This document shows positions 892-55,236 of a stretch of DNA of 64,000 nucleotides, piece by piece. The stretch comes from Spironucleus salmonicida (Eukaryota). The stretch is taken from contig NC_090602.1 in assembly GCF_000497125.1 (NCBI RefSeq), positions 744,001 to 808,000 of the forward strand, written 5' to 3'. Below the pieces are notes generated by a model that saw nothing but the letters and a program-made list of their open reading frames with translations, had not been told where the DNA came from and ran no database searches. A program made the translations under genes and the position numbers. How positions within the stretch are numbered: the first letter of the stretch is position 1; each line of letters begins with the position of its first letter.

Positions 892-1143
892 ATGAGCCTT
901 TTTTCCTGCTGTAAAAAGAAAACCCGGCCGATGTCGATGGTGTTCTGCCCGTCAGCACCTGAGTTCGCAGGCCGCATATCCGTAGTATCCGACGACGGAA
1001 AGGACGTTCTCATGCGACACTTCGAGTATGAGGAGAATACAGACGATTTTGACACTTTCAAAGTTCCGTGCGAGGCCGATAAGCTTTTATAAAAGGTACC
1101 AGAAAAAGTAGAAAGCCGGAGCTCGGTATTGGACGATAAATGA
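892..1143 (+). CDS. Microprotein, 'EFAGRIS' family member 1 (83 aa, MSLFSCCKKK...)
   Basis: Track ORF continues through TAA to TGA at 1141-1143; shares motifs with ORFs at 31507 and 54976. Confidence 0.8.
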
Positions 1144-1697
1144 CCTACGGCAGCAACGAAATCCTAGATTTAATTTGGAAGTGAGCGGTGAGCTTTATGA
1201 TTTTCTTATCACAGCACCCATTACATCAGATATGCTCTACACAAGGGCGCTGTAGACGGTGGAAAGCCACATTTTGGCATTCAAAATCACATAGCTCGGC
1301 GTTCTAAATGTATAATAATCAATAAAATTAGTAAAGGAATTATATTCATTCTACGCGGTTGCGGGCAATTTTGCGACGTGCGAAACCGCGCGGAGCGGTC
1401 CCGGCAAGCCTTGCGATCTGCTGCGTGTTTTTAATTTTCCAAATTCGGGCTGTAGCGCAAAGTTTGTATTACCGGAAAATGCAGATATTGCGAGAAACCG
1501 AAAAACTTAAAAATCGCAATTAGTCCCTTAAATCAAATATAACTTATATTATGTTAAAAGCGGTTTTACTTGTTGGGTCCTTTAGACGTGCAATGTGGCC
1601 AATTGTATACTCCAGGAAGTTACATTTAAAAACATTAAAAAAGGAATCTGTGATAATACTCTAATTAGCGTATTTTACGATCCTGAAAAAATCAGAA

Positions 1698-1982
1698 ATG
1701 GGCGTCCTGACTACGGTGCTGACCACGGAGGATCCGGTCTAAAGCACGCTCCAGACTCTTCCCAGCTCCGCGAAGCTGCGCAAAATAGATGTATAGGCCC
1801 CCGGGGCCATGCAGCGCAATTAGACGTTTCTGATCAAGTCCGCATCGCCCATCAGCCCCACTGGGAGCAGTCTTATTCAGCTGTTAGATCGCTTCGAGCA
1901 TGTTGATAGCGTCTACAGCAACACGTCAACGGCGTTCAAAATTCTGGACTTGGAGGGAGTTTTTGAAGTGAAAATGGTGTGA
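1698..1982 (+). CDS. Microprotein, MG[VA][LV] family (94 aa, MGVLTTVLTTED...ILDLEGVFEVKMV)
   Basis: Open in code 6; N-terminus matches those at 29416, 30792, 33306 and 54426. Confidence 0.7.
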
Positions 1983-2273
1983 TATAATGGTGGAAAAGCG
2001 CAGAATAAATGGTGTATATGGTGTCAGATTCGTGATGTGCATCGGTGCAGTAGGATGCTCTCGTACAGGATTCGTATCTCGCAATTTCAGATTTGATCTT
2101 TTTCTATTTTAATTATAGTTAATATAATACAATAATATGAATTAAGTTATTTACCATTCCTTTTACTACAATATTTCATATATTCAATATTAATATATTT
2201 AAAATGCCATTTGATATTTTCTTTCCCTTGGATAAAACCATACAAAATTCATACTAAAATACTAAAATCTCTT

Positions 2274-3368
2274 TCACTTGACCTGTGCCTTCAGTTTCTC
2301 GTACGCCGAAAATAGCAAATTATATACCTCGATGAACCCCTGCGCCCAGTTTTCCTGCAGTCCATGCGGAATTTTGCCGTTAGCCTTCTTGTAGAACTGC
2401 ACCGCGGAGAGCGACTTATCGTAGAGTTCCTTGTAGCTAAATAGACACTTCTAAACCTCGCGCTTGAAGAGCTTGATCCCGCTCTGGTCACGCGGCACGA
2501 CCTTCTGTAGCTGGTTCGTCGCCTGCTGCTTGATCTGAATGAGCTGCATCAGCAGCGGCCTCACGATTGGGTCGTCCACTGAGAGCTGCTTGCTGTCGAT
2601 CTCGTCCGCGACGTACTACTTCAGAGCCTTGTACTCCATGTAGAGCGGCCTCAGCTGCTCCTTGTCCTCTTTGTTGGGCTCTCTGCCGAATTTCTTCTCG
2701 AATTGCAGGTTGAAGTCCCTGAGAACGTTTTTCAGGATTCCGCGGTAGTCTGAGAGCATTTGTACCTCCTTTTCCTTGCTGATACCTTTTTAGACGCTTT
2801 GTTACTTTCCCATGACGCTCACGTTCTTCTGCTTAACTTTACCATTTTGGGCGTCGATTGTAGGTATATTTCCCCATTTTCGCTCTAACCTGACCATTCT
2901 GTTGCATCTTTTCAGATGTTTTTCAGTTAGTGGGAGTGAATCATCGTCCCAGACTAATATCAGCGATTTGACAAAGGCATGCCTGCCTCTTAAGCTTGCA
3001 AGCACAACTGTGGATGCCCAAGCCTCTAACTGCGCACGTGATGCTGTTTATCGATCTTGGAGGATAAATGGCGTTTTTCTGATTTATTCGATTGGAATTA
3101 GAGATGCTGGTGTGCTGATGACTGGTGTTGATGTTGGGATAGGGCGTGGAGCTTGTGGAAGTTGAATCGGCGATGAGAGTAATTTGACAATAAGATCAGA
3201 TAAAAGTGGAGTCGTACTAGTTTGTATTAGTTAAGGCTAAGATAAAGGACGCTGTGACTAGGGAGTATAATTTTTAACAGCAGTATCAAAAATAGTCGAT
3301 ATACATTCACTAGTCAAGGTCAAAATTGAGTCAAACTAAGGTGATGTTAAAATTTCAAACGGAATCAT
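2274..3368 (-). CDS. Protein with FAM13-like C-terminal domain (364 aa)
   Basis: Continuous code-6 frame; LKNVLRDFNLQFEKKFGREPNKEDKEQLRPLYMEYKALK resembles the FAM13 C-terminal repeat; Pro/Thr/Ser-rich N-terminus. Confidence 0.7.
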
Positions 3369-3444
3369 TAAATATTGGAGTGGTTTATAGTAGGTTCTTG
3401 AATATAATATAATTAGTTTTAATATAAAACCGCTTCAAAATAGA

Positions 3445-18416: not shown

Positions 18417-21019
18417 ATTTTGAAGAGTGTGGAGTGAAATTTAATTATTTATTATATATTAAAATGTGATATATGCAGATCAATACATAATATATAGCAT
18501 ATAATACTTAAGTTTATGGGTTTGACTCAGATAATGATAAATGATCATAATTTTAAAAATATGGTATTGAAGATGGATAAATATAATATAGATAAAGTTT
18601 TAAATATAATTTTGAAAAGACTCTCTATATATGATCTAACTTAGTAGTAATTAGTAAATATGCAAACTATTTTATTATCAATACTTAATTCACGTGATAA
18701 CTTATATTAAAAAAATGATTAAAATATAGACTATGTTTAAATTATATTATAAAAAGAATAACTGGTAAATCTTAGTACAAACTTTTTATTTACAAGAAGA
18801 TAAGTTAAATGATATTCGAATATCATTAATTATAGGCTTAAATGACTAATTTCACTGGTTGTATGGTACATGTACGTTTTATTTAACATTTTATAGACTA
18901 AAAAATAACTAACGTTGAATTAATGTGTCTAGTAAATTATTTCTTTATCAACCATACTCATATAATTTACTAATTATTAAATTACATCTTCTATTATGGA
19001 ATCTCATTAGCATATGCAAATTTGAATATTTTTATTGTTGAATGAGTAATTTAATATTAAATATATGTGGTATCGTAAAATTTCTAAAATGACCTATATC
19101 TAAACAATGATTCAAAAAAATGTATGATGTGTAAAAATAAAATTATCATAAAATTATCGATTATAGTAATATTATACTGTCACAACTTGTGCTTAATAAT
19201 ATATTCGTAAAAATTATCATATTACTTCAAATATTAATGTCTAGTAAATATCAAATAAATATCAAAATTAGATCGTAATAAAATATTTTTACTGTTAACA
19301 GTCTGTTAAAAAGATTATTGATTTTCAATAATCTATTAATTTAACATCGATATTTTAAGTCAGCAAATTGGATGAAACTTTGCAAATATGATACATGAAT
19401 TCATTTAGATGATATATATTAATATTCTACAACTCTTGTAAAAGGTTGCATTGTTATTATCACATTAGATTATATGTAAGTTGAAATGGGAGGTCATGTA
19501 GTACATGTTCAAATAGGTATAGATAATGATGAGAAAATCTATTACCATGAAAGATTAGTAAAACCATAAAGAGTATTGCTTTCAATATCAAAGTATTATG
19601 TTACTGTGACCAGGGTAGATAGCACTCTATTAAGAAAATAGGTTATATTCCAATACGTACCATTCAAAAACAGTACTATAAGTGGTTAAAGCCTTTCGTG
19701 ATGCAGTTATAACACATAAAGTTACTGGTTATGATAGGCACAAATTCACGGAGTTAATAATTATCTGATTTATCAGTCTACTTAAATAGTATATAACATT
19801 AAACCTAATGATTCTAAGTCATATGATATTAAATTTTTAACCCTAGTGTTCGAAAGCGTAGAAAAATCATGTATGGTAACTGGAATCAAAATTTACACTT
19901 ATGATAATATTAATAACTGGGAATTCAAGCCCATATTACCGGTAAATATTATTTTGTTGATAGACTTCAATTTTGTGGATGTCTCCAGGTGAAGTCAAAG
20001 TAAAAAGCATAAATATTCTACGCTAAGACCAAACTTAGACAAGTTTCTATGTAGAAAAAGTAGAACTGTTGAAAAATGGTCATATTGATTCTCAGTGCAT
20101 CATTACAACTGGTTGCTTCGATAACAAGCCATATGCAGAAGAAGTATTTGCGGTAGGTTGTAAAATTGTAGGATTTTCCGGAAAATTTATTAAAAACCCA
20201 ACGATCTTGATTACAGGTAACAGGAGATATGCAAAATATAATTTTTACCTTAAAGGTAAGTTTTCATATTGCACTTTTACTGATTGAAGTATATGGAGTC
20301 CCCATTTAATATATGTTATAGTCCAACGTTAAACATAGTTTTAGGATACTTCGGTTCCAAAAGGAAGTAATGTATTATAATGCAGTATTTATTATTACTT
20401 GTAATATTTGTTCAAAAATATTTTGTGGTGAGAAGTACAATTAAAATAAAAATTATATACTGACTATAATTATTTACAACAGTTATTCTATTTTAATATT
20501 CATTACAAAATATATTTTATAGAAATTAACCGGAATTAACAGAAGAATTCAATGCTTAGCATTTTTTAGTTGCATTTTTCTTTTAATTTTCGTATATTAT
20601 TATACATAATAATTATATTTAAAAGTTTTGACAATTACTAGAATGCTAATGTTCGTGTGCACTTGCCAATATTAGAGAATTTAAGTAAAAGATTGAATTT
20701 TAAACATTAAATAATAAAATTATGTGTACGGATGCAAAAACTTTCACGGTAGTAGTGCCTTAGTTTTTTATGTTATACACTTACTGGAGTGATATAGGTT
20801 TTGAATGAAATAAGTATTAGTGGGATTTATTACTAAGAAAAGAATCGTTATTTTAGCAACCTCTAAAATATTGTCCTAACAGAAAAACTATAATGAAAAC
20901 AAAGACAATACAATTCATAAGTATATTTATTAATGATTAAACTTCACTTTCATTGCCAAAAATTAAAATAAATACATCCATAAAAGTTTAAATAATTTCA
21001 TCAACTACAAATGGACGAA

Positions 21020-23719: not shown

Positions 23720-23829
23720 TTGTACGAGGAGTGAAAATTAAAAATATAAATCTCCTTGTATATTGTATAATAATATATATGTATTCCAAATTGAAGGTAT
23801 TAAATATTATACGCTCCGCTGCCCCCATA

Positions 23830-31506: not shown

Positions 31507-31755
31507 ATGATGCCCGCAACTTACCAGTCAGAGTTTTCCTTTAAGCAGTTAATGAAGGATTTATTCACTAAGAAAAATAAGCAGACTAAGCCCTTATCAA
31601 TGACTTTTTCCTCCTCTGCATAAGAATTTGCTGGACGTATTTCTACAAATGATGATGAATTACGAGCTCAACGGTATTATGACTATGATGAATCCACTGA
31701 CAATTTTGAATAGTATGAAGCACCAATTCAAGAAGATTTGCTAATAAGAAAGTGA
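31507..31755 (+). CDS. Microprotein, 'EFAGRIS' family member 2 (82 aa)
   Basis: KPLSMTFSSSAQEFAGRIS...YDESTDNF; AAGTGA stop. Confidence 0.8.
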
Positions 31756-37484: not shown

Positions 37485-38544
37485 TATCTAGGTTCTTGTT
37501 GCTGGTACGCTCCTTGGACCTCGCCCACGAACGAGCGCGCCGCCCAGATCCCTGACAAGGAGCAGGGCGCCGCCGTGGAAAACTAGAGATGGCGTAGAGC
37601 GGCATTTAGGCTGGCACTCCCATTGGGTAAGAAGGGCCCTCGTGTTGGTCCCCCTTCCCAATTGTATAATCTCGGCACCTTCCGCAAATGCTGCTCACCC
37701 TCGCCGACGCCATGCTGCGCGAGCTCCAGGCCCACTCCGGCCTCCGCTGGGTCCCGGGCGCCCCCACCGTCAGGCGTCCCCTCCTGCCCAGACCGCACGC
37801 GGGCCCCGCCCCGGAACGCTACGCCGCCTTCGTGCCCTCGGACGGCGCCCTCCCGCTTGAGCACCTCTGGCCCGCGCTGCGCCCCGAGTGCTCCGGGCCG
37901 GACACCGTCAGGGACCAGGGCAGCTGCGGCTCCTGCTGGGCCTTCTCCGCGGTGGACCAGCTCGCGGACAACCGCTGCATCGCCGGCGCGGCCCGCACGG
38001 CGCTCTCGGAGCAGTACGTGGTGTCCTGCAACACCCAGGGGCAGGAGGGCTGCAACGGCGGCTGGCTGCTCCTGGCCCAGCAGTTCCTGGTCCGCACGGG
38101 CACTGTCGCGGACGCCTGCGCTCCCTACACCTCCGGGCGCTCCGGGGCCACCGGGAAGTGCCCGAGGCGCTGCGAGGACCGCTCCCCCCTGCGCTTCCAC
38201 CGGGGCGCGGCGTTCGAGTACGTATGCCAGAGCGAGCGCAGCATCATGGAGGCGCTGCTCCGCGGCACCGTGCAGACCGCCTTCACCGTGTACGGCGACT
38301 TCGACTACTACCACTCGGGCGTCTACTAGCACGTCAGCGGCGGGGTGGAGGGCTCGCACGCCGTCATGCTCGTGGGATGGGGCGTGGAGAACGACACCCC
38401 GTACTGGCTCCTCAAGAACAGCTGGGGCAGCACCTGGGGCGAGGGCGGCTACTTCAAGATGATCCGCGGCGTGAACGAGTGCAACGTGGAGGACGTGTGC
38501 TTCCTCATCGTACCTGAGTGAGAGGGTAGGTATTCGGATAATTT
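37485..38544. repeat. Inverted duplication arm B (partner 31805..32864)
   Basis: Reverse-complement match. Confidence 0.95.
37688..38521 (+). CDS. Cathepsin B-like cysteine protease, copy 2 (intact)
   Basis: TAG at 38327 replaces GAG (Glu to Gln in code 6); frame continues to TGA. Confidence 0.93.
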
Positions 38545-39542
38545 TATTGTTTCTTTTATGTTAAATCTATTTATAAAATGATGTTAGAATAATTTTATTA
38601 GACATATTGTTTTAAAGGAAACTTATGAAAAATTTCGGATTACTATTTACTCTTAATATTATTCCTTTATATAGAAAAAGTAATTTTTGAATAATTATTT
38701 AGAGTAACTTTTGACATTTCACTTATTTTTTATTGCTATATTAGGTTTATATTTAATTTATACTGTTATAATCATATAAATTTAAGTAAGAAATGAATGT
38801 TTGAGTAATTAGGAATTAGTATACTATTAAATCTTATAATTATTATATTACTATTAGTCAATTCATATTTCCACAGTTTCTAAATACATTCAAAAGAGAT
38901 GTCATCCTATATTAATTCCAAAAAATAATAAGTTTTCTAATCTCATAGATATCTTATGAAAATTATTAATCCATCTAATTATAACTGGTTTTATCTTCCA
39001 GTGATATCTTCTTTAATTAATTTTCATTTTGGATTTAGATAAATTATTTTTACTCATTTAATGAAAATATGGGTATAAAGGCATACAAAATTATCTTTTT
39101 TATGATATATAATAAGTTAATGTAACAATACGACCTTATAAACTATCATTAGTGGTATAATACCAAACAAATTAAGATTTGACTCAAGTTATAACGTTTC
39201 AAATAGATTTTTCGCTCATTAAGTCATTATAATGATTTATACACTTATTTTAATCAGATTTCTTATATATTCATTAAGAGTGCAATCAAAACTTGCTAAA
39301 GATCACAATTTTTATTAAATATCAAAGTATAATGATTTAAAAATATTAACAGTAATCATATTGTTAATAAATAATGTTAATCTATTTGTATAATAGTATT
39401 GCATCTAATATAATGATAGCAGAGAATTAAAAAATATTAATATACTAGGAAAATAATACTATAATAATATATATGGTAGGAAAGAAATATAATTTAGTAT
39501 ATTATTATTTTATCTATATATTATAGTCTTTTTAAACATTAA

Positions 39543-40055: not shown

Positions 40056-42953
40056 ATGGATTTTGATTTAGACGATCTCGATAACGAATACGAGGAAATG
40101 TACGAGATTTACAAGGAAGAAGAAGACTGCAGAACCGACATAGATCTATTGTAGGAAAGCTACGAGATTTCTTTGGCTGCATTTGAGGAATTTGATAACG
40201 ACCCAATCAGCAAGTTTGCAGAGCAGTACTACTCGGATTTCTTTCTTTTCAGGATCGTGGCACTTCGAAGAGTGCCTGGCATCATCGCCGCCTCCGATCT
40301 GTCAATTTTCCGAAACAAAATCTACTCAATTCTGATACAGACAGCGACTACTTTTACGGACGAATTCGAGTTCTCGGACCGCATTCCGAGCTTCCAGGAG
40401 CTGATTTCGCGGGAAAGCGCGCCTGCGCAGCTCGCCAGCGACCCGGTGGATGCCCAGTTCCTGAATGCGCCGCTACACATCGAGAATCAGCTGCACATCG
40501 AAAAGTGCCTAATCCTGGAGCTGATACCGCAATTTTTTCACTCCATTTTCTACAAATCCCAGGAATTCCAGATTCAGCTCAAAAACGTCCTAGAATTCGT
40601 TTTTCCACTCCTTCTCGCTCTCGTCAAGTCAACCGCCTCCATAAAGTTCATCAGTCGCTGTTACGACATTCTCTTCGATGTGATGGTCGAAATTCGGTCA
40701 AAAACTGAAGGGAACCGCTCCCGATTCGACAAATTCCAGCAAAATCGCTCCCTGCTGCCCAGGAACGTCCAGGAGCTCCTGGGCGAGTTCTACGAGATTT
40801 CGATGCAATATTTCGTTCTTTTTCCGTTCCTTTTCAGCCAAATTGTCAATTTTCGCGTCCAGGGAAGCGCCTGCGCGGCGATAATCAGCGCCCGCGCGCT
40901 CGTGGGGCTGCACGTTTTCGGTGCGGACAGCTACCGCTACCTGCGGGAATCCACGTTCCCTCACGAGGAAAACGCGGACGAGTTTCTGGCCGCTGAGCCC
41001 GAAATCAGTACTGAAAAATACAATATAATACTGCAGATAATCCGAAAATTTCCGCTCCAATTTAACGATTTTTACCTGAAAATTATCGTCAAATTCGCGA
41101 AGTTTCTGCCCTCGAAAACGACGATTCCACTCCTCACGGTGCTCGTGAAGCAGCTCTCGGGGCGGCCCGTGTACACCGAGTTCCTGGTACAAGTCACGCG
41201 CCCGCTCTACACGTTCCAGGGCTCGTTTACGCAGCACTACTACACGCTCATCCAGCACAACAACGAGCAGAGCTGCGAGTTCTCGCTACAGGCGCCGCAT
41301 GTGAACTACAGCAACCAGCAGCTGAACTTGACTGCGCTCTCAGCGATTCTGGAGCGTCAGAATCTCGACTGCAAGTTCCGCAGCATCCAGGACGAGATTG
41401 TGAGCGTTCTCATGAAAAACGACGGCGATTTGAAGCTAAAAATTCCGTTTTTCCTGGCCTCTCTGCTGCGGAACGCGAGCTTCAGCACGAAAATGAACGT
41501 GGGCGAATTCTACTACAAAAAGGTATTTTCGGCTGACAAAAAGCTCGTGCAGCAGTACATCAAGAATCTGGGCATCTTCCTGCAGGTTTTTTCAAATCTG
41601 AACACAGATGATATAATAATCGACAATTTTTAGATCCAGCTCCAGACAGTGTATAAGTTGGTGCAGCTATTTCTCGACCTCTCGGGGCGCGTTTTCGCGT
41701 TCTCCGAGCTCAAAATCCACATAAACGACCACGAGAAGTTCTACGACTTCTTCATCGGGCACAACATCCAGAACCTGCCAAAAATTTGCGGCATTTTCCT
41801 GCAGCTGAAGGCGCTCGAGTTCCGCGTCCTGGGCGCGAGCCAGCTGCTGGGCGCGCAGCAGCTCAGGGAGTACCAGGACGCGCTGGGGAGCTTCCTGCTG
41901 AAGCGCTTCCAGCCCACGTGCCCGCTCAGCCTGCGCTACGCGCTCGCCAAGGAGCTGCTGCGGAGCCCCCAGAACTTCCGAGACGTCCTGGGCGAGGCCA
42001 AGCTCGGAACCCTCTTCGTTAGCGTCCTTTTAGAGCTTGTAAACATAGATTAAATGCCGGCCCTTTTGGCTTAGGAGTAGGAGGCGTCGCTTTGGTCAGC
42101 GATCCAGCCCCGATTTCGCGAGTTCGCCCAGGTTCTACTCCGGACTCAACCGAATTTGACCCGACGCGAATTCGGCTCCGTAGCGATTTCGTGCGGGCAG
42201 TACCGCTCGCGCGTGCTCTACGCGGACGCGTTCCCGCAGCTGCTGTTCAAGTTTGCGGGTTTCGGGGCGTTTCCGGCCGTTTTCGCGTCCGTGGAGCAGA
42301 TCGTTTTGGACCTCCTGCGGGACCCCGTCCGGAAGGTGCGCACCGCCGTCAGCCGCCAGCTGGGGGTCCTCCTGGGCGAAATCGTGGCCCGCGCGTTCGA
42401 TTCCGCGTGCCTCCTGCAGTTCCTGGACCGCCTGCTGAGCGCCTCGCGCTGCACGATCGAAACGCGCTGCCTGGTCGTAAATGTGCTCTATAACGCCGTC
42501 CGCGTCGCTGGCTGCTGCGATTTCGCGTTTCCGCTGCTCTAGCGCCTCTGCAGGTCGCATTTCATCGTCAAAGCGACCGTGGTCAAGTCGCTAGCGTACC
42601 TGGCCCGAAACCGCGTTTTTTGCGTGTTTTCGGGCGAAATTCAGGGGCTGAGGGGGGATTTGGTGGGGAAGAATGTGGAGGATGTGGAGGGGAGGGGGGA
42701 TGTGGAGGTTGGGAAGAATGATGGGAAGAGTGATGGGAACGATGGGAACGATTTGTTGGGGAAAAATGATGGGAAGAGTGATGGGAACGATGGGAAGAAT
42801 GATGGCGTGGGGGAGACCGACCAGGCAATCCTCATGTTCGACGGGTACTATATGCAGGAGCTGGAGCGGTGGTTGGCGGAGGGGGGAGAATAAGGGGAGG
42901 AATAAGAATAAGGAGAATAAGGAGAAGGAGAAGGAGATTTGGTGGTGGAGTGA
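40056..42953 (+). CDS. HEAT-repeat protein (PP4R1/PP2A-A-like phosphatase scaffold candidate), 965 aa
   Basis: Track ORFs 40173, 41649, 42156 and 42579 share one frame; LLRDPVRKVRTAVSRQL; low-complexity GKND and EQ tail. Confidence 0.8.
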
Positions 42954-43644
42954 GGGGAGTGAGTGGGGATGAATGGATGGATGGAGGCAGGTAGGTAGGA
43001 GTTGCGGTTTCTTGGGTTAATTCGGCGTGGATTGTAGTAAATGTGTGTTAGAACGTTTTTAGAAGCATGAGAAACGTGGGATTTGGTATTTTTGAAGCGC
43101 GCGGAGGTAGGTCTGCAGCGGAGGTGAATAAACGCAGAAATCGAAAAACTGAATTTATGAAGTATGCTAATAATACGGTAATAAATGCATTGCCTGGATA
43201 CTCGTAAATGAACACAATCCAGCGCAGCCTATCGCAAATAGCGAATAAGTCTTAGGAAGACTTTCAGACCGAATTGCTGGAGAACAACGCCCTGACTGCG
43301 CACGACATCAACGCCGCAGTAGATCCGGTTAAATGTAAGCACGACGGGGTCTACGTTTCGCACGATAGCCTGGTCATGAACACCACGCACAGGAACACGC
43401 TGATGATGAGCTTCGCGCTGGAGTGAGGTTCGGTATCTCCGCTTGGCACAGCCACATACTGCCCTAAACTCGCAGTGAGCTAAAGTCCCGGCGCAGGAGA
43501 CTGGTGCTAGGCCATGCTCGGCTGCCGCTTTAGGAGTCTTAGTAAGTAGAATGATCGCGAATGGGAAACCTGGGTCTGCTAAATGGTGCAGTGGGCGCAG
43601 CCAAATGGCGGGTAGAGCGCAAGTGAGCATATCGGTATTAAATG
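42560..43644. repeat. Segment directly repeated at 62955..64000 (copy runs off the window end)
   Basis: HEAT 3' end, purine-rich 3' region and 72-aa ORF recur. Confidence 0.95.
43208..43426 (+). CDS. 72-aa microprotein, 'NALTAH' family
   Basis: MNTIQRSLSQIANKSQEDFQTELLENNALTAH...MMSFALE; homologous to 9477. Confidence 0.8.
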
Positions 43645-43950
43645 GAATGGGCGAGTTAACTCGAGTCCGGCGCGGCCTTCGCCAGCTCATGTTCGGCAGC
43701 CCGTGCCAGTGTTGCCTCTCCCGCTGTGTCTAGGGGGCTGGCTGTGCACACCTAGCGGTCGGAGGCGCCGCGAGTCCAGGCAGCCTGTCTTCCGGCTCAC
43801 TGGTGTGCCTGCCGTAGCGGTGCTATCGGCCGTGAATTTATCAGCTCTCCCTAGTTCTCTGCAGTAAGCCGCAACGGCCCGCCCGCCTGCCTGGGCGACT
43901 CGGGCCTTCCATTCCGCGCGATGTTACCCAAATATTATACAATTCTAGTC

Positions 43951-44358
43951 TCACTCCGAAAGGCCCATCTCGACGGCCCGCAGCCGCACCGCCAGCTCCG
44001 TGGTAGCCAGGGCCGCGGCGATCTCGCTGTCCGCCAGCCCATCTGCGCGCAGCAGCCTGAGCTTGTGGTCCTCCTCCGCGGAGAAGGCGTCGTCTCCGAG
44101 GCGGAAGCTCAGCACGCGGCGCCAGTGCTGGGACACCTGGGAGCCGGCGCGCAGGGGGCACCGCGCCTGCGTGGAGACAGCGGCGGCGATGTCGGCCCAG
44201 GGCGTGCAGGGCCTGGCCCGCATGACGCTCGAGAGGGTGGCGTCCTCAGCGGCGGTCCAGGTGGAGGCGCGCATGGGCTTGCTGGCCCTGGGGGCGACCG
44301 CGGTCTTCGCGCAGTAGATAATCCCCGAGATCTGCTCGAGTACCTCGCTAAAATCCAT
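43951..44358 (-). CDS. Myb-like protein with two repeats (135 aa), copy A
   Basis: WTAAED..L...W.DIA....R.GSQVSQHW..VL and FSAEEDHKL. Confidence 0.85.
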   Translation of the reverse strand: MDFSEVLEQISGIIYCAKTAVAPRASKPMRASTWTAAEDATLSSVMRARPCTPWADIAAAVSTQARCPLRAGSQVSQHWRRVLSFRLGDDAFSAEEDHKLRLLRADGLADSEIAAALATTELAVRLRAVEMGLSE

Positions 44359-44813
44359 TTGGTGGAGGGGTGTTTCTAAGTATCTCGGGGCGGGACCCAA
44401 AGAGGAGGTGGGCCCACACTACCGGAGCGGGGTGTTATTCTCTGGGTATTACTGCGAGAAAGGAACAATGCGACGCGGTTTGATTTTAAAAATACTACAA
44501 ATCGTATTGTGGGGGATTCTGGGTAAAAACCGATCGGCCAGTTTCGTAGAAAAAGTGCGGATCTTTAACGTCGTACCCCCTTGTACGCACCATACCGCGG
44601 GTTGCAGCCAGATTGAGTACTAAGGTAATTCTAAATTTAGAATCGCGCAAGTTTACCAGATTCTGCCTACAAGCTCCGCTGAGTAGAAGCGGAGCGTTGG
44701 ATAAAAAACTGCGGCCACACTTATATATCCCGAGGCAAATACTTTCGGAAATGGGAAGAGGCGGCCCAGCGCATGTGAAGCGTACGCATTAAGTCACTCA
44801 CCGCTGACGGGCC

Positions 44814-45119
44814 TCACTGCAGGAGGTCCAGCTGCTGGAAATTGTAGCCGCCCAGCACCGCCTGGTCGAAGGCGATGAGGCGCATCTGCTTGGCGCTGGG
44901 CTCCTGGGGATGCTGCAGCAGGTAGTAGTACTTGTTCTTCACCTGGTTCTGGGTCAGGTGTGGGAAGTGGGTGGACACGTACTACCACCGCTTGTGGTGC
45001 GTTTCAGCTAGCATCAGCAGGCTGGATATCTCGGCATCGCTCCAGGTGTGGCGATCGAACGCGCGACGCTGTCTGGGCTGGCCCTTCTGGGTAGTAGCGG
45101 CTGAGTAATTTCCCAGCAT
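44814..45119 (-). CDS. Single-repeat Myb-like protein (101 aa), copy A
   Basis: RHTWSDAEISSLL...KRWQYVSTHFPHLTQNQVKNKYY. Confidence 0.85.
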
Positions 45120-46573
45120 TTTGAGTAAGGCAGGAAACTTAAAATCTATTTAATTTTTAATATAACTACTATGTAAAAAGTTTAGAAATCTACGAATGCT
45201 TATATTCTTTTTACAATATAGTATTACCTCCAAAGCAAAGACGAATAACTATACACTAAATTTGTAATATGATATCATATTATTACTAAGAATATATTAA
45301 AAATTAAATTTCGTTAAGATGAATAAATGTTCTAATTGTTAATAATTACTAAGATTCATATTCACTACATTACTTTTTATTTACAGATTTTAAGAAAATG
45401 ATATTATATTAATAATTATAACACTTAAGAGATTATATAATACATTATAGTATCCATTTTTACAATACCTATATCTAAGATCACCTTTTTGATTATTTAT
45501 TCTTATTTTAATTAACTGAGTTATATTAATTAAAATTGAAAACTAACTACCATAATAAATATATAGTATTTATTTCATTTATTAACAATAACTGTAAAAT
45601 GTTAAGAACTGATAAGTTTTTATATTTTATAGTATTGTATATATTATATAAATATTGTACTCATGATAAAAAATACCATTACTAGAATACGTTGGACAAG
45701 AATAAATTAATGCTCTTTAGATTAAAAACCATCGCTGATCCTTTACTATATATTATATAAGATCGTTGATGATTTACTTCTAGAGGTCGAAACGTATTTA
45801 ATGAGTACAATTTATAATATGTAGCAAATTTAAATAAATATTTAATTTATTCTTGATTTCTTTCTAATTCTATAAATAAAAAAATATATGATAGGAATAT
45901 AATCATCGTTTTAAAGAACTGCTTAAGTAGTATCTGAACGAGAAGTAAATAAAAATAATAATAAAAAGTTTATCAATATATAAATTCTTGAGATGAAAGT
46001 TTTTACTGATTAGGTAATATTAGAATCATTACTTAAACGTGTATAAATAATTCATAATTGGATTAAAGAAATCATAATTTAAATTTCTAATAATATAGCA
46101 AAGTGTCTTGCTAAAATATAACAATTAGAATGATTTTTAGCTTAAGTTTTTGATATTATAATGTTTTAATCTTTATAGGCTATATAAGATATCTTCAAAA
46201 CGTATTTGACTTTGTTATTAGGTTTAAGTTATCAAAAAACTAACTATAAAATAATCTAGAGATAATAAATAGCTAGTAATTATATGATAATTTTTCGAAT
46301 ATCCTAAAAATTTAATAGCAATTATAATACTGAGCTGAAAATTTAAATTATATCTTGTGCTAACATTATACTAAATAATTCTAGCCATATATATTATCCA
46401 TAATATTTCCTCGAAATCATCGAAAATTAATAAATAAAAATGTATCAATGAATTTTCAAATTTTGATAAACTATAAAGATTCTAGAAATTAAGCCGTTAT
46501 CAAAAAATGTAAATTTGTAATACGAGAATCTAAAAAGATAGTAAAAACTCACAAAATAAAATTTTAAATTTTA

Positions 46574-47869: not shown

Positions 47870-48038
47870 TTAATTAAAAAGGAAAAATGATTTAATAAAA
47901 ATATATTATTTTATAATATGTGAGTAATAAAAATAAAATTTTATATATATATGATTTAATAGACGAAAAGTTGAAATTATTCTATTAACTAGAATAACAT
48001 TCATTTCTCTTTATAATTATGAATAAACCAAACTATAT

Positions 48039-48260
48039 ATTGCCCTCACGCAAGCGGAGCTGGACCTGAAGCTGGAGTGCGTCAGGAACCACAGATCCCA
48101 GATGGGTCAGGCCCTTTACCTGGGTGATGACTTCCGCGCGTTCGACGTCAGAGCAAAGGAGCGGAACGAGGCAACTGCCAGCGCCCTTAGACTGCTCGGC
48201 GTCTTGGAAGACGGGCAGGTCGGCGCTGAATGCTATGTGGGATGCATTGAAATGCCCTGA
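48039..48260 (+). pseudogene. Duplicated 3' fragment of the NagB/PIG-L gene
   Basis: IALTQAELDLK...HRSQMG...EMP*; nearest upstream ATG (48019) is out of frame. Confidence 0.85.
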
Positions 48261-50024
48261 GTGAAGGAATTTTTGCATGCCGACGGTCTGCCATTGCGAG
48301 CCCAGGTCTAGACAAATGGAACATATCACTCAGAAGAAGAAGTCCTCATACTGACTACCCCCTGGGAGGAACTCACATAGGAGTGAGTTCTCAGGAACGT
48401 ACTGCACAGGGATTGGGAGCATTGGCTCTAACATGCGGAGTAAGCGCTTGGCCTGTGGATAGTTGGGAGATATGTGCGGAACCTATCTAAGAAGAGGAAC
48501 GGCAAACACGCGAAGGACAAACTGCTCGTACATAATAGATGAGTTAAAATACACGTCAGCTTTGGTCTGATTGGGGAGAATCCAGATGTCCTCGCCTTCG
48601 CGAACTGCGGGCCAGGAGTCCAGCGTGCTATCGGCAGAGCGCCCGCGGAAGAGGAAATCGCGGCACATTCTACGAAGGAGGCGCGAATCCTGGTGCTCGA
48701 TGGTGCGAAGTTCGTCCCAGGCGAGGGTGCCAATAGGCTAAATAAAAACCCTGAGGCGCATGCTCTGGGGGACCACCTTGGTAATCTCGTCATTGAGAGC
48801 GTGGATACCCTCAACTACCAAAACCCCAGTTGGGGACAACTTCAGCTTCTTTCCATCTCCCGGTTATCCCCTTTTGAAATCGTAGGAGGCCATGATGATC
48901 TCCTCGCCATTAATCAAACCAGCCAAAGTCCTCTAAATACGTGCGATATCCAGGGCATGAAGGTGTTCGAAATCTGGTTTGTCGGTTCCCTTTAGTCTAG
49001 GGGCATTCTCTGGTAGACCGTAAAAATCATCCAGCGATACTCTTACTGGCTCGAAAGAACGACCCCTGAGCATGCATGTCAGCCTATTGGCAAACGTGGT
49101 TTTGCTAGAAGATGACGGTCCAGCAACGAAAATAACTCGCGTTTAAGGCGTAGCTCTCATAGCAACTTCAGAAATCTATCTCTCGTGGTTAAATTCAGCG
49201 AATGCAATAATTTCCTACAAAACCTTAGGCGATGCCGAAAGCTGATTCAGCGATGCCGCTGAGTTGAACCCTATAGTATTTGCTTAGTGAAGATGCAAGT
49301 CCATTATCGCCGCAATTTCTTCCTAAAGTTTAGAGGAATCCCGCAGAGGACATACTTCGGGTTCTTCAAATTACCCATAGTACACTAAGAAACCTTGATG
49401 GAAAGGGACTAGCTTGTAAGTTCCAGCGATTGCATCTGTGTTCGCTAAGAAAGGCTAAAGCCACATTGCAATATAATCATGGTCTCCATATTTAACAGAA
49501 GCGACATCAATGACAGACTTGTTCAAAGTTTATAGTAATTCAACTGTTTAGTTTTGGCTAAACTTTTTAAATTGGATAATGGCATCTTTAAACGAAACAA
49601 CTTCACGGTGAATAGGAATTTTAGCGTCTACAATATCATTCATAAGTTTCTAAATATTTTTAATGTCCTATTTAGAACATGCCATTTCATTATATTAGAA
49701 GTAAAGCGCTTTTCCAATATTATAACGATGTTTCAGCGTTAAACCTGGGTACGCAAGCGTAGATGCCATATGAGTTATGAGACAGATTGTATCCTATAGC
49801 ATAGGCAAAGCGTGTAAATCATCACAATACATAGGTTTTATCGATGAAGAGATATCTAGTTTCTCATTCAGTGATAAAATTTCGTTGTTACTATAGAATG
49901 CAACAATTCTAGGATCTCTAGGTAACACATTATAAGCATGAGTGTTTTAATCTACTTATATGGTTTTTTGCTCGTCTATCAAGTATAGGTCGATTTTTTC
50001 CTTATCATAGATGTCAAAAATTGA
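48039..50024. repeat. Inverted duplication arm A (about 1986 bp; partner 50374..52359; 349 bp spacer)
   Basis: Mirror-image ORFs in the track (coordinate sum 100398); no differences seen. Confidence 0.95.
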
Positions 50025-50364: not shown

Positions 50365-52068
50365 ATGTACTCTTCAATTTTTGACATCTATGATAAGGAA
50401 AAAATCGACCTATACTTGATAGACGAGCAAAAAACCATATAAGTAGATTAAAACACTCATGCTTATAATGTGTTACCTAGAGATCCTAGAATTGTTGCAT
50501 TCTATAGTAACAACGAAATTTTATCACTGAATGAGAAACTAGATATCTCTTCATCGATAAAACCTATGTATTGTGATGATTTACACGCTTTGCCTATGCT
50601 ATAGGATACAATCTGTCTCATAACTCATATGGCATCTACGCTTGCGTACCCAGGTTTAACGCTGAAACATCGTTATAATATTGGAAAAGCGCTTTACTTC
50701 TAATATAATGAAATGGCATGTTCTAAATAGGACATTAAAAATATTTAGAAACTTATGAATGATATTGTAGACGCTAAAATTCCTATTCACCGTGAAGTTG
50801 TTTCGTTTAAAGATGCCATTATCCAATTTAAAAAGTTTAGCCAAAACTAAACAGTTGAATTACTATAAACTTTGAACAAGTCTGTCATTGATGTCGCTTC
50901 TGTTAAATATGGAGACCATGATTATATTGCAATGTGGCTTTAGCCTTTCTTAGCGAACACAGATGCAATCGCTGGAACTTACAAGCTAGTCCCTTTCCAT
51001 CAAGGTTTCTTAGTGTACTATGGGTAATTTGAAGAACCCGAAGTATGTCCTCTGCGGGATTCCTCTAAACTTTAGGAAGAAATTGCGGCGATAATGGACT
51101 TGCATCTTCACTAAGCAAATACTATAGGGTTCAACTCAGCGGCATCGCTGAATCAGCTTTCGGCATCGCCTAAGGTTTTGTAGGAAATTATTGCATTCGC
51201 TGAATTTAACCACGAGAGATAGATTTCTGAAGTTGCTATGAGAGCTACGCCTTAAACGCGAGTTATTTTCGTTGCTGGACCGTCATCTTCTAGCAAAACC
51301 ACGTTTGCCAATAGGCTGACATGCATGCTCAGGGGTCGTTCTTTCGAGCCAGTAAGAGTATCGCTGGATGATTTTTACGGTCTACCAGAGAATGCCCCTA
51401 GACTAAAGGGAACCGACAAACCAGATTTCGAACACCTTCATGCCCTGGATATCGCACGTATTTAGAGGACTTTGGCTGGTTTGATTAATGGCGAGGAGAT
51501 CATCATGGCCTCCTACGATTTCAAAAGGGGATAACCGGGAGATGGAAAGAAGCTGAAGTTGTCCCCAACTGGGGTTTTGGTAGTTGAGGGTATCCACGCT
51601 CTCAATGACGAGATTACCAAGGTGGTCCCCCAGAGCATGCGCCTCAGGGTTTTTATTTAGCCTATTGGCACCCTCGCCTGGGACGAACTTCGCACCATCG
51701 AGCACCAGGATTCGCGCCTCCTTCGTAGAATGTGCCGCGATTTCCTCTTCCGCGGGCGCTCTGCCGATAGCACGCTGGACTCCTGGCCCGCAGTTCGCGA
51801 AGGCGAGGACATCTGGATTCTCCCCAATCAGACCAAAGCTGACGTGTATTTTAACTCATCTATTATGTACGAGCAGTTTGTCCTTCGCGTGTTTGCCGTT
51901 CCTCTTCTTAGATAGGTTCCGCACATATCTCCCAACTATCCACAGGCCAAGCGCTTACTCCGCATGTTAGAGCCAATGCTCCCAATCCCTGTGCAGTACG
52001 TTCCTGAGAACTCACTCCTATGTGAGTTCCTCCCAGGGGGTAGTCAGTATGAGGACTTCTTCTTCTGA
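50365..52068 (+). CDS. Bacterial-type uridine/nucleoside kinase with N-terminal ThrRS-like domains (567 aa)
   Basis: AGPSSSSKTTFANRL, SLDDFY, VEGIHALN, RLLRRMCRD..RG, ADVYFNS, NSLLCEF. Confidence 0.9.
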
Positions 52069-52359
52069 GTGATATGTTCCATTTGTCTAGACCTGGGCTC
52101 GCAATGGCAGACCGTCGGCATGCAAAAATTCCTTCACTCAGGGCATTTCAATGCATCCCACATAGCATTCAGCGCCGACCTGCCCGTCTTCCAAGACGCC
52201 GAGCAGTCTAAGGGCGCTGGCAGTTGCCTCGTTCCGCTCCTTTGCTCTGACGTCGAACGCGCGGAAGTCATCACCCAGGTAAAGGGCCTGACCCATCTGG
52301 GATCTGTGGTTCCTGACGCACTCCAGCTTCAGGTCCAGCTCCGCTTGCGTGAGGGCAAT
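50374..52359. repeat. Inverted duplication arm B (partner 48039..50024)
   Basis: Reverse-complement match. Confidence 0.95.
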
Positions 52360-53880
52360 GTAGAACGTTGCATCTTCAATATTAAACTCAGCCCAAGCCC
52401 CTCTATATAAATACTTAACTATACCACCATTATTTTAAAATGACTTAATTGTCGCATTATCTTTAACTTTAGGATTGTAAACTGAATAATAACTATCAAG
52501 ATCCTTAATCTCAATCTAGCCTTCATAACTAATGAGAGCAAGTTTAATTACGTCATAACAATGACCATGAGTACCATGTGGGTCAGAAAGATCTCCTGCA
52601 AGAAATATAACATCAGGCTTAATAGACTAAATTAAATTTAGGCAAACCTGAATATCTTTTTCGCCTGGCACTGTACGCTTGCCGAAACCAGTACCATAAA
52701 ATGGAAGCCTCATGAAATGGGTCTTGTTAAGAGGATTTTTGAAAAAACCTGCTTTTTCGACACCTGACATAGCCTCAATTTCTCTGCAAATTGCTTTGGT
52801 TTCTGGGTTGACACCGCTGCTAAACAGCTTCTGAGCTTCGTCTTTAGTTAATTTTTCGTGTGAAAGATAATCTTTCCCATTGAAACTGCTCTAAAGATCC
52901 TCATATTTGACTTTTTCATTATTGATTTTCACGCTAAATTGGTCAATTTTGTCCTACACAAACAGATCTGGGCACGCTACTGACCCAGTAACACAGTACG
53001 CGACGTGGAACTCTTTTGCATGGTTGCAGAGGTTCAGAACGACACCCCCGGCCGAAATAACATCGTCGTCAGGATGTGGTGAGAAAAACAAAACCTTCTT
53101 TCCTTCAAACAGCTGCTGCTGAGGTGTGTAAACACGTGATTTCAAATCCGTCAATACGTCTCCCTATGCGATCCGTTCACCGCTCTACTGCGCGTTTTGG
53201 ACGCAGTTGCGCTTCAGCGTGCGCCGGGACTCGTCGTCAGGGTGCATGATCTACGTCAAATTTTGAATCGACAAAATGTCACAAAATGCCTCCCCCTTGA
53301 CGCGCAGAATCTCGCCTACGACGCCGACTTTCGCCTCGATGCAGGCGGCAGCGGAGTCTTTTGAGAGGTCACCCTTGAAAACAGCGATAATTCGCGTGCT
53401 AGTGGAAACCAGCTCCTCCTGCGTGACGATCTCGAATAGGTCCCCCTGGACAGTTTCAGACTGGTACTACGTGGTTTCCTGCTGCTCGGAACCCATGATT
53501 CCGAGGTCCTCCATAATCTACTGCTGCGACTATTTGACCTGGCGTGCGCTGGGCGAGATGAGACCAGCGTCCAGCGTCGCGGGGCGAGCCGTTAGCACCG
53601 CCAGATCGATTTTCGGAGGTTTCGAAACAAGTTGGAAGGGAGAAGGAAGGGCGAGATAGGCGTTCAAGTTTATGGAGCGGACCTGGCCCAGCGTGTAGAT
53701 TTTGAGGGGCGTGGTGGAGGTGGCGGCGAGCTGCTTCAGGATCTGGCGGCCGACGTTTCCGGGCCAGATGGCGATAGTGGAGTTCGCCGGCAGTGCTGCT
53801 ATTTCGGCGGCAGTCTGTGCAACTAAGGCGATTTCGTTATCGAAAATGGTTACTGGCGTTGAATCTACGATGATTTGCAT
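52138..53880 (-). CDS. Long NagB-like protein: degenerate N-terminal domain plus PIG-L/LmbE deacetylase domain (580 aa)
   Basis: FSPHPDDDVISAGG, HFMRLPFY, AGDLSDPHGTH, LYRGAWAE, HRSQ..LGDDFRAF..RAKERN. Confidence 0.88.
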
Positions 53881-54425
53881 TATGAGGAAGGGAAATCAAA
53901 ATATATAATAATATATATTAAATATACGTAAATAAACATAAAATTCTACGGTAAACAATAATATAATATATGGTTTATATATGATTTTAGTTGGAATTGT
54001 AGAGGTATGAGTTGGTTGCAGATTTTGAAGTGACATGGTAAATTTATATTTCTAGAGTAGTGTAAAAGATATATTTGGTAGTTCATTGGGTATATTTTTG
54101 TTAAGAAAACAGGCAAATTAACCTTTAAATAATGTTAGATTGAAAACTTGTGGTACAAAACCAGAAACAACCTTACAGCGTTCTTACTAGTCCGTTTATA
54201 TTAGAAATGATAAAGCTAATCCCGTCAATAAACTTTATTTAAGTCATTTTGCCAATTAAGAAAATTAAATATTCAATTTTATTAAATAGCTTAGTGCTAG
54301 GTTTTTAAAAATTCTATTGAGTGCAGGTTCAACTCTTATAAGCAAAATTTTAGTAAGCAAAATTATACTTTTAACAATCATAAAGTAAGTTAATAAGTAT
54401 AGTAAAGCATATGTTATTTTTTAAA

Positions 54426-54968
54426 ATGGGAGCCCTAGCAGAAGTGATGTCGGCTCAAAAAACCTCAGAACCCGCATCCAGGGAGCCCGTACACGTATCA
54501 TCCCATAAAAAGTAGTAGAATGAGGTATTACAGAGCCTGTCTTCTCTACCATCTACAGAAGTTCAGCAACAGTTGTTGGTGCTTTAGACATAAAATGAAC
54601 CCAAATTCAAGCCTACAGAGCTGATTGGTACCAAAAATAAAGCTAATGCTGAAACTACCAAAAATTCTATTATCGTGAAGCCTGTAATCTAAGAAATATC
54701 ACTGACAGACCATTACAACTCGGTTTCTAAGCAGAAGAAGGATACACCGCTGCTGAACTTGGATCAACTCATTCAGTAGCAGCGTGAATTCCGGAGTAGA
54801 TAACCCGTCCATCGGTTACTTTCGTTGACGAATTCGAGCAAGCTTCGGGGCGTCTATATAGACTAGGATATTTCAGACTAGAGTTCCCTGCCGGAGGGGC
54901 TGGTAGAAAAGGATATGTCACCGTATACGATGGAATACAAACAGTAAGCGCAATAATTCTTTAAATGA
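54426..54968 (+). CDS. MG[VA][LV]-type protein (180 aa, MGALAEVMSA...)
   Basis: Open code-6 frame; stop codon 7 nt from the convergent gene's stop. Confidence 0.7.
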
Positions 54969-54975
54969 CGAAAAC

Positions 54976-55236
54976 TCATTCTACATCGTGTATTGTCTAT
55001 CGGGTGGTAGATTCTTCAACCTGGTCAGTGATGGTGCTTATATATTCTTTTATTGACTATGTCTTGTTGATAACCTCGAATTCGTCTGTGTTTTCCTCGT
55101 CTGCAAAATATTTATTATTATCCTGAACAGTGTTGACTTCATCCGAAATGACAGATATCCGCCCTGCAAATTCGATGGAGGATGGGGAGAACTGCAACGA
55201 TAGCACTCTTTTGGGTTTGCAGCATTTTGCAAACAT
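54976..55236 (-). CDS. Microprotein, 'EFAGRIS' family member 3 (86 aa, MFAKCCKPKR...)
   Basis: LSLQFSPSSIEFAGRISVISD...DEENTDEF. Confidence 0.8.

What the first reader, a model, noticed from the sequence alone, without database searches (positions are those of the whole stretch)
892..55236. 'EFAGRIS' microprotein family with a PAM2-like motif and a dicysteine N-terminus
Seen: three dispersed, diverged 82-86 aa ORFs (892+, 31507+, 55236-) share [ML]S[ML]xF[CS][PS]S[AS]xEFAGRIS followed by an acidic [DE]E[NS]TDxF block. Two start with CC plus basic residues (MSLFSCCKKK, MFAKCCKPKR); the third has only a basic patch. Known: the PAM2 consensus is LxxxAxEFxP and binds the MLLE domain of poly(A)-binding protein; Paip2 is a small acidic PAM2 protein; N-terminal CC-K motifs are typical S-palmitoylation sites. 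Inference: these could be membrane-tethered, Paip2-like PABP adaptors with an RxS phospho-site. The match is imperfect (F for L, AG for xP).
Basis: partly seen in the sequence, partly recalled or inferred. Interest (0 to 1): 0.8.

Follow-up and report, generated by a model that had tools for sequence, protein, structure and literature searches.

The report
Four-copy orphan disordered microprotein family
A protist that reads TAA and TAG as glutamine carries four old, diverged copies of a tiny gene whose 61-86-residue, probably unfolded proteins keep one 19-residue peptide almost unchanged; the family is real and has no known relatives, but its proposed link to poly(A)-binding protein is unproven.

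Summary
The window has four copies, not three. The new one, c4 (55466-55651 +), lies 230 bp from c3 on the other strand.

- **More than chance:** each copy is recovered by a profile built from the other three, at E 3e-13 to 2e-22 among 1300 six-frame segments.
- **Protein-coding constraint:** synonymous sites are saturated (pS 0.79-0.97) while pN is 0.37-0.44. Identity at codon positions 1/2/3 is 0.55/0.65/0.31, and the flanks are unrelated.
- **Fold:** the proteins are predicted to be disordered.
- **Relatives:** only the window's own three annotated proteins were found among 1.84 billion representatives. Pfam, PDB and metagenome contigs gave nothing.

The PAM2 reading is weak. E9-F10 and a hydrophobic position 3 fit in all four copies. 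Asn4 is absent, and the Pro of the defining FxP core is an invariant Gly. Pfam's PAM2 model does not match. I could not check whether the host has an MLLE domain.

My best reading is a set of lineage-restricted short-linear-motif adaptors. Two of them probably carry an S-acylated N-terminus. The partner is unknown.

The parts
892..1143 (+). c1: 83-aa ORF (stop included). Cys-Cys at residues 6-7, one in-frame TAA (Gln67).
   Evidence: Annotated in public sources as an unnamed protein (P0001).
925..981 (+). c1 core motif RPMSMVFCPSAPEFAGRIS (residues 12-30).
1030..1050 (+). c1 acidic block EENTDDF.
31552..31755 (+). c2: 67-aa form from the ATG homologous to the other copies. Public annotations start at 31495 (86 aa) or 31507 (82 aa). 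No Cys.
   Evidence: The choice of start is an inference from the alignment and from the upstream pyrimidine-rich element.
31588..31644 (+). c2 core motif KPLSMTFSSSAQEFAGRIS. Its Gln is encoded by TAA.
31687..31707 (+). c2 acidic block DESTDNF.
54976..55236 (-). c3: 86-aa ORF, Cys-Cys at residues 5-6, two in-frame TAG.
   Evidence: P0002. Covered by contigs of 4 of 4 laid runs with 0 differences.
55153..55209 (-). c3 core motif RVLSLQFSPSSIEFAGRIS (residues 10-28).
55078..55098 (-). c3 acidic block DEENTDEF region.
55466..55651 (+). c4: new fourth copy, 61 aa from the homologous ATG. An in-frame ATG at 55430 would give 73 aa. No Cys, six in-frame TAA/TAG. Not among the public proteins found.
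   Evidence: Leave-one-out E 3.1e-13. Covered by contigs of 4 of 4 laid runs.
55496..55552 (+). c4 core motif KPLSMQFTPSSIEFSGRIY (Ser to Tyr at the last position).
55595..55615 (+). c4 degenerate second block DEKIYYF (the N/S-T-D part is lost).
55237..55465 (.). 229-bp AT-rich spacer between the divergent c3 and c4 start codons. Possibly a shared promoter region.
   Evidence: coordinates. The promoter role is an inference.

Best explanation
The window holds four old paralogues of a lineage-restricted, protein-coding micro-gene. Each encodes a 61-86-residue protein that is probably unfolded and has three modules.

1. A basic N-terminus with net +4 charge over the first 14 residues. In c1 and c3 it carries a Cys-Cys pair at residues 5-7.
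2. A nearly invariant 19-residue peptide: [KR]-[PV]-[LM]-S-[ML]-x-F-x-[PS]-S-[AS]-x-E-F-[AS]-G-R-I-[SY].
3. An acidic tail with an aromatic-x-[DE]-E-[NS]-T-D-x-F block.

The most likely mechanism is that of short-linear-motif adaptors or regulators. The conserved peptide would dock in extended form onto a groove of a conserved host protein. The basic N-terminus, S-acylated in two copies, would hold the complex at a membrane. The conserved serines sit in basophilic contexts ([KR]xxS in 4 of 4 copies, RxS in 3 of 4), so binding could be switched by phosphorylation.

Shown here: the ORFs, the paralogy, the protein-level constraint and the predicted disorder. Inferred: docking, membrane anchoring and phospho-control. 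The partner is unknown.
For: **Paralogy.** Profile E-values are 8e-45 to 1e-27 against 0.13 for the next segment, and all four leave-one-out runs recover the omitted copy.

**Coding constraint.** Over the whole alignment pS is 0.79-0.97 and pN 0.37-0.44. In the motif core pN is 0.25-0.34. Identity at codon positions 1/2/3 is 0.55/0.65/0.31 overall and 0.62/0.78/0.32 in the core. None of the 12 comparisons of 150-nt flanks is similar (z from -2.1 to +1.9).

**Invariant columns.** M1, K9, S15, F18, S21, E24, F25, G27, R28, I29, E48 and F53.

**Disorder.** AlphaFold2 on the four-row alignment gives pLDDT 58.4 and pTM 0.13 with no secondary structure. The Atlas models have pLDDT 0.26 and 0.50.

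**Charge layout and Cys positions.**

**Age.** None of the window's recent 99%-identical segmental duplications contains a copy, so these paralogues have been kept for a long time.
Against: - No relative was found outside this genome, so conservation across species cannot be judged.
- There is no protein-level evidence, and no run on record as RNA.
- The disorder prediction rests on an alignment of only four sequences.
- c4 has lost the N/S-T-D part of the second block and the last Ser of the motif. It may be drifting.
- Start codons of c2 and c4 are ambiguous.
- A motif-level mechanism without a named partner is hard to falsify.
Confidence: 0.55

Rival explanations
1. The FxPSxxEFxG peptide is a divergent PAM2 that binds the MLLE domain of the host poly(A)-binding protein, making these proteins membrane-tethered, Paip2-like PABP adaptors.
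For: - E9-F10 are invariant and position 3 is hydrophobic (Phe) in 4 of 4 copies. Position 7 is Ala or Ser.
- Phe10 is the main determinant of binding. The MLLE pockets tolerate different hydrophobic side chains, and position 7 must be small (PMC7356810, passages).
- The motif lies in predicted disorder.
- Membrane-tethered PAM2 and PAM2-like adaptors exist in fungi, for example Upa1 (bioRxiv 10.1101/2021.10.25.465676, passages).
Against: - Asn4, which stabilises the beta-turn, is present in 0 of 4 copies.
- The Pro of the canonical FxP core is an invariant Gly in 4 of 4.
- Pfam's PAM2 model gave no hit in 0 of 4 copies at E<=10.
- The invariant G-R-I and the upstream [KR]P[LM]S[ML] are left unexplained.
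- In the related Giardia, Pan2/Pan3 and eRF3, which I recall as carrying PAM2 in other eukaryotes, are reported absent. PABP itself is present (PMC2723961, passage).
- Presence of an MLLE domain in the host was not checked.
Confidence: 0.12
2. Regulators or pseudosubstrates of a basophilic Ser/Thr kinase, or of its opposing phosphatase. The R-I-S-[VT] and [KR]-x-x-S-[ML] sites would be the functional core, and the flanking F/E-F residues would act as docking residues.
For: S15 is invariant with K/R at -3 in 4 of 4 copies. R28 is invariant and is followed by I-S in 3 of 4. R-x-S-hydrophobic is a minimal consensus for several basophilic kinases (my recall, not tested here). Small disordered kinase and phosphatase inhibitors are a known kind (recall).
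Against: c4 has Tyr in place of the second Ser. There is no sequence relation to any known inhibitor family in Pfam or PDB. The consensus is too short to be specific.
Confidence: 0.12
3. Vesicle-coat or trafficking accessory peptides. The acidic aromatic block (acidic-F-x-x-hydrophobic) would bind an adaptor appendage domain while the lipidated N-terminus sits on the membrane.
For: The second block keeps E48 and F53 invariant and has F-x-x-[FYI] in 4 of 4 copies. The N-terminus is basic, with Cys-Cys in two copies. The motif class is recalled, not tested.
Against: This does not explain why the first motif is the best-conserved part. c4 has lost most of the acidity of the block. No adaptor sequence was available to test against.
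Confidence: 0.08
4. Not functional proteins: either chance ORFs in a genome with only one stop codon, or a conserved non-coding DNA element.
For: With TGA as the only stop, spurious ORFs are very common in this window. Expression is not shown.
Against: Third codon positions are randomised (identity 0.31) while second positions stay at 0.65-0.78. Similarity stops at the ORF borders. The same frame is open in all four copies.
Confidence: 0.03

Closest known systems
PAM2 peptides of PABP partners such as Paip2 (consensus LNxxAxEFxP)
   Same: A short peptide in a disordered, small, largely acidic protein, with an invariant E-F, a hydrophobic residue seven positions before the F, and a small residue at position 7.
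   Different: No Asn4. Gly instead of the Pro of the FxP core. Extra invariant G-R-I and an upstream [KR]P[LM]S[ML]. No Pfam PAM2 hit. Host MLLE domain not verified, and no homology to Paip2.
Upa1 of Ustilago maydis: an endosome-anchored adaptor with PAM2 and PAM2-like motifs
   Same: In concept it is a membrane-attached protein that presents MLLE-binding peptides. The PAM2-like variants show that the core spacing can vary.
   Different: Upa1 is a large multidomain FYVE protein. The PAM2-like core is FxxP preceded by an acidic stretch, whereas here it is FxG preceded by Ser/Pro. No homology.
Small disordered proteins anchored by an N-terminal Cys-Cys next to basic residues (GAP-43-type S-acylation; recalled, not from a call)
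   Same: Cys-Cys within the first 7 residues followed by a Lys/Arg cluster in c1 and c3. The rest of the protein is disordered and carries regulatory motifs.
   Different: Two of the four copies lack the cysteines. No sequence relation, and acylation was not tested.

Membership tests
PAM2 (PABP-interacting motif 2) | Hydrophobic residue (Leu) at position 3 that fills an MLLE pocket | tested here: met
   Phe in 4 of 4 copies. The pockets accept different hydrophobic side chains (PMC7356810, passage).
PAM2 (PABP-interacting motif 2) | Asn at position 4 that stabilises the beta-turn | tested here: not met
   Cys, Ser, Ser, Thr; Asn in 0 of 4. Role of Asn4.
PAM2 (PABP-interacting motif 2) | Small residue (Ala) at position 7 | tested here: inconclusive
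   Ala in c1 and c2, Ser in c3 and c4.
PAM2 (PABP-interacting motif 2) | Glu9-Phe10, with Phe10 the main determinant | tested here: met
   E-F invariant in 4 of 4.
PAM2 (PABP-interacting motif 2) | Pro at position 12 (the canonical FxP core) | tested here: not met
   Gly invariant in 4 of 4. The FxP core is described in bioRxiv 10.1101/2021.10.25.465676.
PAM2 (PABP-interacting motif 2) | Match to the curated Pfam PAM2 model | tested here: not met
   No PAM2 hit for any of the 4 proteins at E<=10. Short-motif models are insensitive, so this is weak negative evidence.
PAM2 (PABP-interacting motif 2) | Host encodes an MLLE/PABC domain for the motif to bind | not testable with these tools
   No genome is held for this window. 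None of the 32 window ORFs scanned has the domain. The papers searched do not state the domain make-up of diplomonad PABP.
PAM2 (PABP-interacting motif 2) | Physical binding to an MLLE domain | not tested
Paip2-like PABP inhibitors | Sequence homology to Paip2 | tested here: not met
   No Pfam family and no relative outside the window among 1.84 billion representatives.
N-terminally S-acylated peripheral membrane proteins | Cys or Cys-Cys within the first ~10 residues, next to basic or hydrophobic residues | tested here: inconclusive
   Met in c1 (C6, C7) and c3 (C5, C6). Absent in c2 and c4.
N-terminally S-acylated peripheral membrane proteins | Thioester-linked fatty acid on those cysteines | not testable with these tools
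   Needs acyl-biotin exchange or metabolic labelling.

The most novel reading that the evidence does not exclude
A lineage-specific family of lipid-anchored, PAM2-like peptides that recruit poly(A)-binding protein, and so mRNA, to membranes. It would act in a eukaryote whose relative Giardia is reported to lack eIF4G and Pan2/Pan3. That would be a minimal, independently evolved way to control or localise poly(A) mRNPs.
Probability: 0.08. Interest if true: 0.75.

Novelty: new variant of a known kind. Interest (0 to 1): 0.4.

Why it matters
Diplomonad-type protists have reduced translation and mRNA-decay machinery and many unnamed genes. A microprotein family that has kept a 19-residue peptide through synonymous saturation marks a binding interface under strong selection. 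It is therefore a cheap handle for finding an unknown, probably lineage-specific regulatory complex, using a peptide pull-down or proximity labelling.

The case also shows that genes of about 60 aa are missed in code-6 genomes: c4 is not among the public proteins found. If the partner turned out to be PABP, the family would be a new, simple form of PABP control. If not, it defines a new short linear motif.

Tried and rejected
**Whole genome and earlier findings.** Neither was available.

**Relatives elsewhere.**
- The word-indexed protein search returned only the window's own 3 proteins among 107 candidates.
- The exhaustive profile search returned 5 hits at E<=0.001. Three are the window's own. 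P0004 is a bacterial repeat protein matched 9 times on a short SFSSS..FGRI string. P0005 is a tandem-repeat retroelement-like artefact matched 6 times. I rejected both as repeat-inflated chance.
- In metagenome contigs, 245 pattern matches were found and 0 were confirmed by tblastn.
- PDB gave 1 hit at E 8.6, which is irrelevant.
- Rfam gave 0 matches.
- The ESM Atlas gave no hit of 0.9 or more for c1 and no usable named hit for c3.

**Expression: no RNA holder listed.**
- The four holders come from one study and their kind is only guessed to be RNA.
- When laid, their contigs cover c3 (54434/54448 to 55222/55229) and c4 (from 55435/55478 onward) with no differences.
- The stretches 53873-54434 and about 55230-55435 have little or no cover.
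- Contigs are gene-sized, with depths from 5 to 314 and adapter letters at their ends. This looks transcript-like to me.

**A fifth copy.** 19399-19698 + weakly resembles the c4 tail (E 0.006-0.16), but no motif lies upstream of it in any frame. I treat it as chance.

**A promoter word.** CTTCTAA lies just upstream of the c3 and c4 start codons and of the gene at 40056. It is not enriched in the window: 15 matches against 12.25 expected.

**Literature.**
- Searches for an MLLE domain in diplomonad PABP found no statement on it. I read passages of PMC5862402, PMC3359775, PMC7139794, PMC2723961 and PMC8575317.
- Supplementary figures of PMC5862402, which show PABP domain cartoons, could not be seen and may bear on this.
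- A full-text search for the motif strings found no relevant paper.
- A search for diplomonad microproteins listed none (listing only).

**Ideas considered but not pursued.**
- Inhibitors of the neighbouring cathepsin B (c2 ends 73 bp from it). Rejected because there is no signal peptide, so the topology is wrong, and the other copies have no protease neighbour.
- Resemblances, recalled from memory, to kinase-inhibitor or kinase-activator peptides, SUMO-interaction motifs and Atg8-interaction motifs. These are too degenerate and were not tested.

**Complex prediction.** No job was sent, because no candidate partner sequence from the host was available.


Full report
**What is there**

A fourth copy was missed. 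It lies inside ORF 55148-55651 +, whose last 61 residues, from the ATG at 55466, read MQRILQKKQGKPLSMQFTPSSIEFSGRIY.... This copy, c4, is divergent from c3, and their start codons are 230 bp apart. A scan of the six-frame translation for EF[AS]GR finds these four places and no other.

**The host**

The host reads code 6. The UPF1-like ORF has 62 in-frame TAA/TAG codons, yet it matches the helicase families over their full length. All four micro-ORFs carry in-frame TAA/TAG as well, and in c2 one of them lies inside the motif.

The gene content includes cathepsins B and C, a flavodiiron-type protein, a PIG-L protein and a TLC-domain protein. Together with TGA as the only stop, this fits a hexamitid diplomonad (PMC1805757, passages). 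I did not establish the species.

**Is it more than chance?**

Yes.
- A profile of the four scores them at E 8e-45 to 1e-27 among 1300 stop-to-stop segments. The next segment scores E 0.13.
- With each copy left out in turn, the omitted copy is still found at E 1.7e-22, 3.2e-19, 3e-17 and 3.1e-13. The best non-member lies between 0.006 and 1.7.
- Pairwise identity is 36.5-51.6%.

**Is it coding?**

- Nei-Gojobori counts under code 6 give pS of 0.79-0.97, which is saturated. pN is 0.37-0.44 overall and 0.25-0.34 in the motif core.
- Pooled over the six pairs, identity at codon positions 1/2/3 is 0.55/0.65/0.31. In the core it is 0.62/0.78/0.32.
- The 150-nt flanks are unrelated in all 12 comparisons, with z from -2.1 to +1.9.
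- E-F-A/S-G-R-I is spelled with different codons in every copy.

This is the signature of long-standing selection on a protein, not on DNA. By contrast, the window's recent duplications are 99% identical and contain none of the copies.

**Anatomy**

The alignment has these invariant columns: M1, K9, S15, F18, S21, E24, F25, G27, R28, I29, E48 and F53. There are three modules.
- **A basic head.** It has net +4 charge over the first 14 residues in all four copies. Cys-Cys sits at residues 6-7 in c1 and 5-6 in c3, and is absent from c2 and c4.
- **The 19-residue core.** [KR]-[PV]-[LM]-S-[ML]-x-F-x-[PS]-S-[AS]-x-E-F-[AS]-G-R-I-[SY].
- **An acidic tail.** Its net charge is -7, -7 and -11 in c1-c3 and -2 in c4. 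It contains the [DE]-E-[NS]-T-D-x-F block, which is degenerate in c4.

AlphaFold2 on the four-row alignment gives pLDDT 58.4 and pTM 0.13 with no secondary structure. The Atlas's own models have pLDDT 0.26 for c1 and 0.50 for c3. The proteins are therefore best treated as disordered carriers of linear motifs, although a four-sequence alignment is shallow.

**Start codons**

c1 and c3 have only one possible ATG. For c2 and c4 the ATG homologous to c1 and c3 (31552 and 55466) is preceded by the same kind of pyrimidine-rich stretch that precedes the ATG of several ordinary genes in the window: the PIG-L gene, the gene at 40056 and the amino-acid transporter. This favours the short forms.

That evidence is anecdotal, because the word CTTCTAA is not enriched in the window. 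Public annotations of c2 use upstream ATGs, and c4 has an in-frame ATG at 55430.

**Relatives**

None were found.
- The word-indexed search returned only the window's own three annotated proteins. They sit in single- or two-member clusters without names, in NCBI, UniRef and EukProt.
- The exhaustive HMMER search of 1.84 billion representatives added only two repeat-inflated chance hits.
- Pfam, PDB, Rfam and the metagenome contigs gave nothing.
- c4 is not among the proteins found, so small unannotated copies may also exist elsewhere in this genome and in related genomes. I could not search those.

**Expression**

No holder on record as RNA was listed. Contigs of four runs from one study, of guessed kind, cover c3 and c4 without differences. 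They are described under Tried and rejected and Noticed in passing.

**The PAM2 reading**

I compared the motif with LNxxAxEFxP (PMC7356810, passages).
- In favour: E9-F10 is invariant, position 3 is Phe (the pockets tolerate other hydrophobic residues), and position 7 is Ala or Ser.
- Against: Asn4 is never present, although it stabilises the turn. The Pro of the canonical FxP core (bioRxiv 10.1101/2021.10.25.465676, passages) is an invariant Gly.
- Pfam's PAM2 model does not match any copy at E<=10.
- The strongest conservation after the F (G-R-I) and before the motif ([KR]P[LM]S[ML]) has no counterpart in PAM2.

In Giardia, PABP is reported present, but Pan2/Pan3 and eRF3 are absent (PMC2723961, passage), and eIF4G was not detected (PMC5862402, passage). 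I recall Pan3 and eRF3 as PAM2 carriers in other eukaryotes. No text I could read says whether diplomonad PABP keeps the MLLE domain.

The reading is therefore possible but rests on three to four residues. I give it about 0.12.

**What it most likely does**

These are small, disordered, bipartite (basic then acidic) proteins with one near-invariant peptide. I expect them to act as short-linear-motif adaptors or regulators. The peptide would dock onto a conserved host protein, and the basic head would place it at a membrane. In two copies the head is probably S-acylated on Cys-Cys. Conserved serines in [KR]xxS and RxS contexts make phospho-control plausible.

Rival readings are kinase or phosphatase regulators, coat-adaptor ligands and PAM2. 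They differ only in the partner, and the sequence alone cannot separate them.

**Novelty and score**

The family is real and is one copy larger than both the finding and the public annotation show. It has no detectable relatives or known motif membership. In kind it resembles other lipid-anchored disordered motif carriers. Its function is open, so interest is moderate at 0.4. It would be high only if the PABP link, or another defined partner, were shown.

Noticed in passing
window 48014-50024 / 50374-52384; 43406-45122 / 60802-62518; 31798-32864 / 37485-38551; 42885-43184 / 63241-63540: Several recent segmental duplications, mostly inverted, at 96-99% identity. They include a pair of PRK/uridine-kinase-type genes and a pair of cathepsin B genes. 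None carries a microprotein copy.
   Followed up: partly
window 43514-44878 + and 61046-62410 -: A duplicated GC-rich (0.60) 454-aa ORF with no Pfam family and no Rfam match. Overlapping ORFs lie on both strands, so its nature is unclear.
   Followed up: no
window 21020-23854 - versus 31828-32760 -: Extreme spread of gene composition within one window. The UPF1-like gene has GC 0.30 and 62 in-frame TAA/TAG, while cathepsin B has GC 0.70 and 4.
   Followed up: no
window 52132-53870, 55435-56710, 56855-57852: Contigs of the four laid runs (kind guessed, one study) end 4-13 nt inside the ORFs of ordinary genes. The PIG-L ATG at 53880 compares with 53870, the La-like ATG at 56714 with 56710, and the ATG at 56847 with 56855/56860. 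They also end 6 nt past the PIG-L stop. c3 follows the same pattern (ATG 55236, contig end 55229 at most). If these runs are RNA, this would fit the very short UTRs reported for diplomonads (PMC1805757 passages). It is not counted as evidence.
   Followed up: partly
window 55779-56714 -: Convergent neighbour of c4: a La-type RRM_3 protein (E 1.2e-14) with a long Gln-rich tail made largely of TAA/TAG codons (47 in frame).
   Followed up: no
window 54426-54968 +: An unannotated-looking 180-aa ORF, convergent with c3 and ending 8 bp from its stop. The same contigs that cover c3 also cover it. It was not scanned against Pfam.
   Followed up: no
window 19399-19698 +: A weak resemblance to the C-terminal part of c4 (D-x-D-E-K-I-Y-Y ... 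P-Q-R; E 0.006-0.16) without the core motif in any frame. Probably chance, or possibly a very old relic.
   Followed up: yes
upstream of ATGs at 53880 (-), 40056 (+), 34099 (+), 892 (+), 31552 (+), 55236 (-), 55466 (+): A pyrimidine-rich stretch of the type TTTCC(C)TTCT lies 5-20 nt before the start codon. An AT-rich tract lies 25-45 nt upstream in some of them (for example PIG-L, the gene at 40056, c1). This could be the local initiator element. It was not tested statistically beyond one word.
   Followed up: partly
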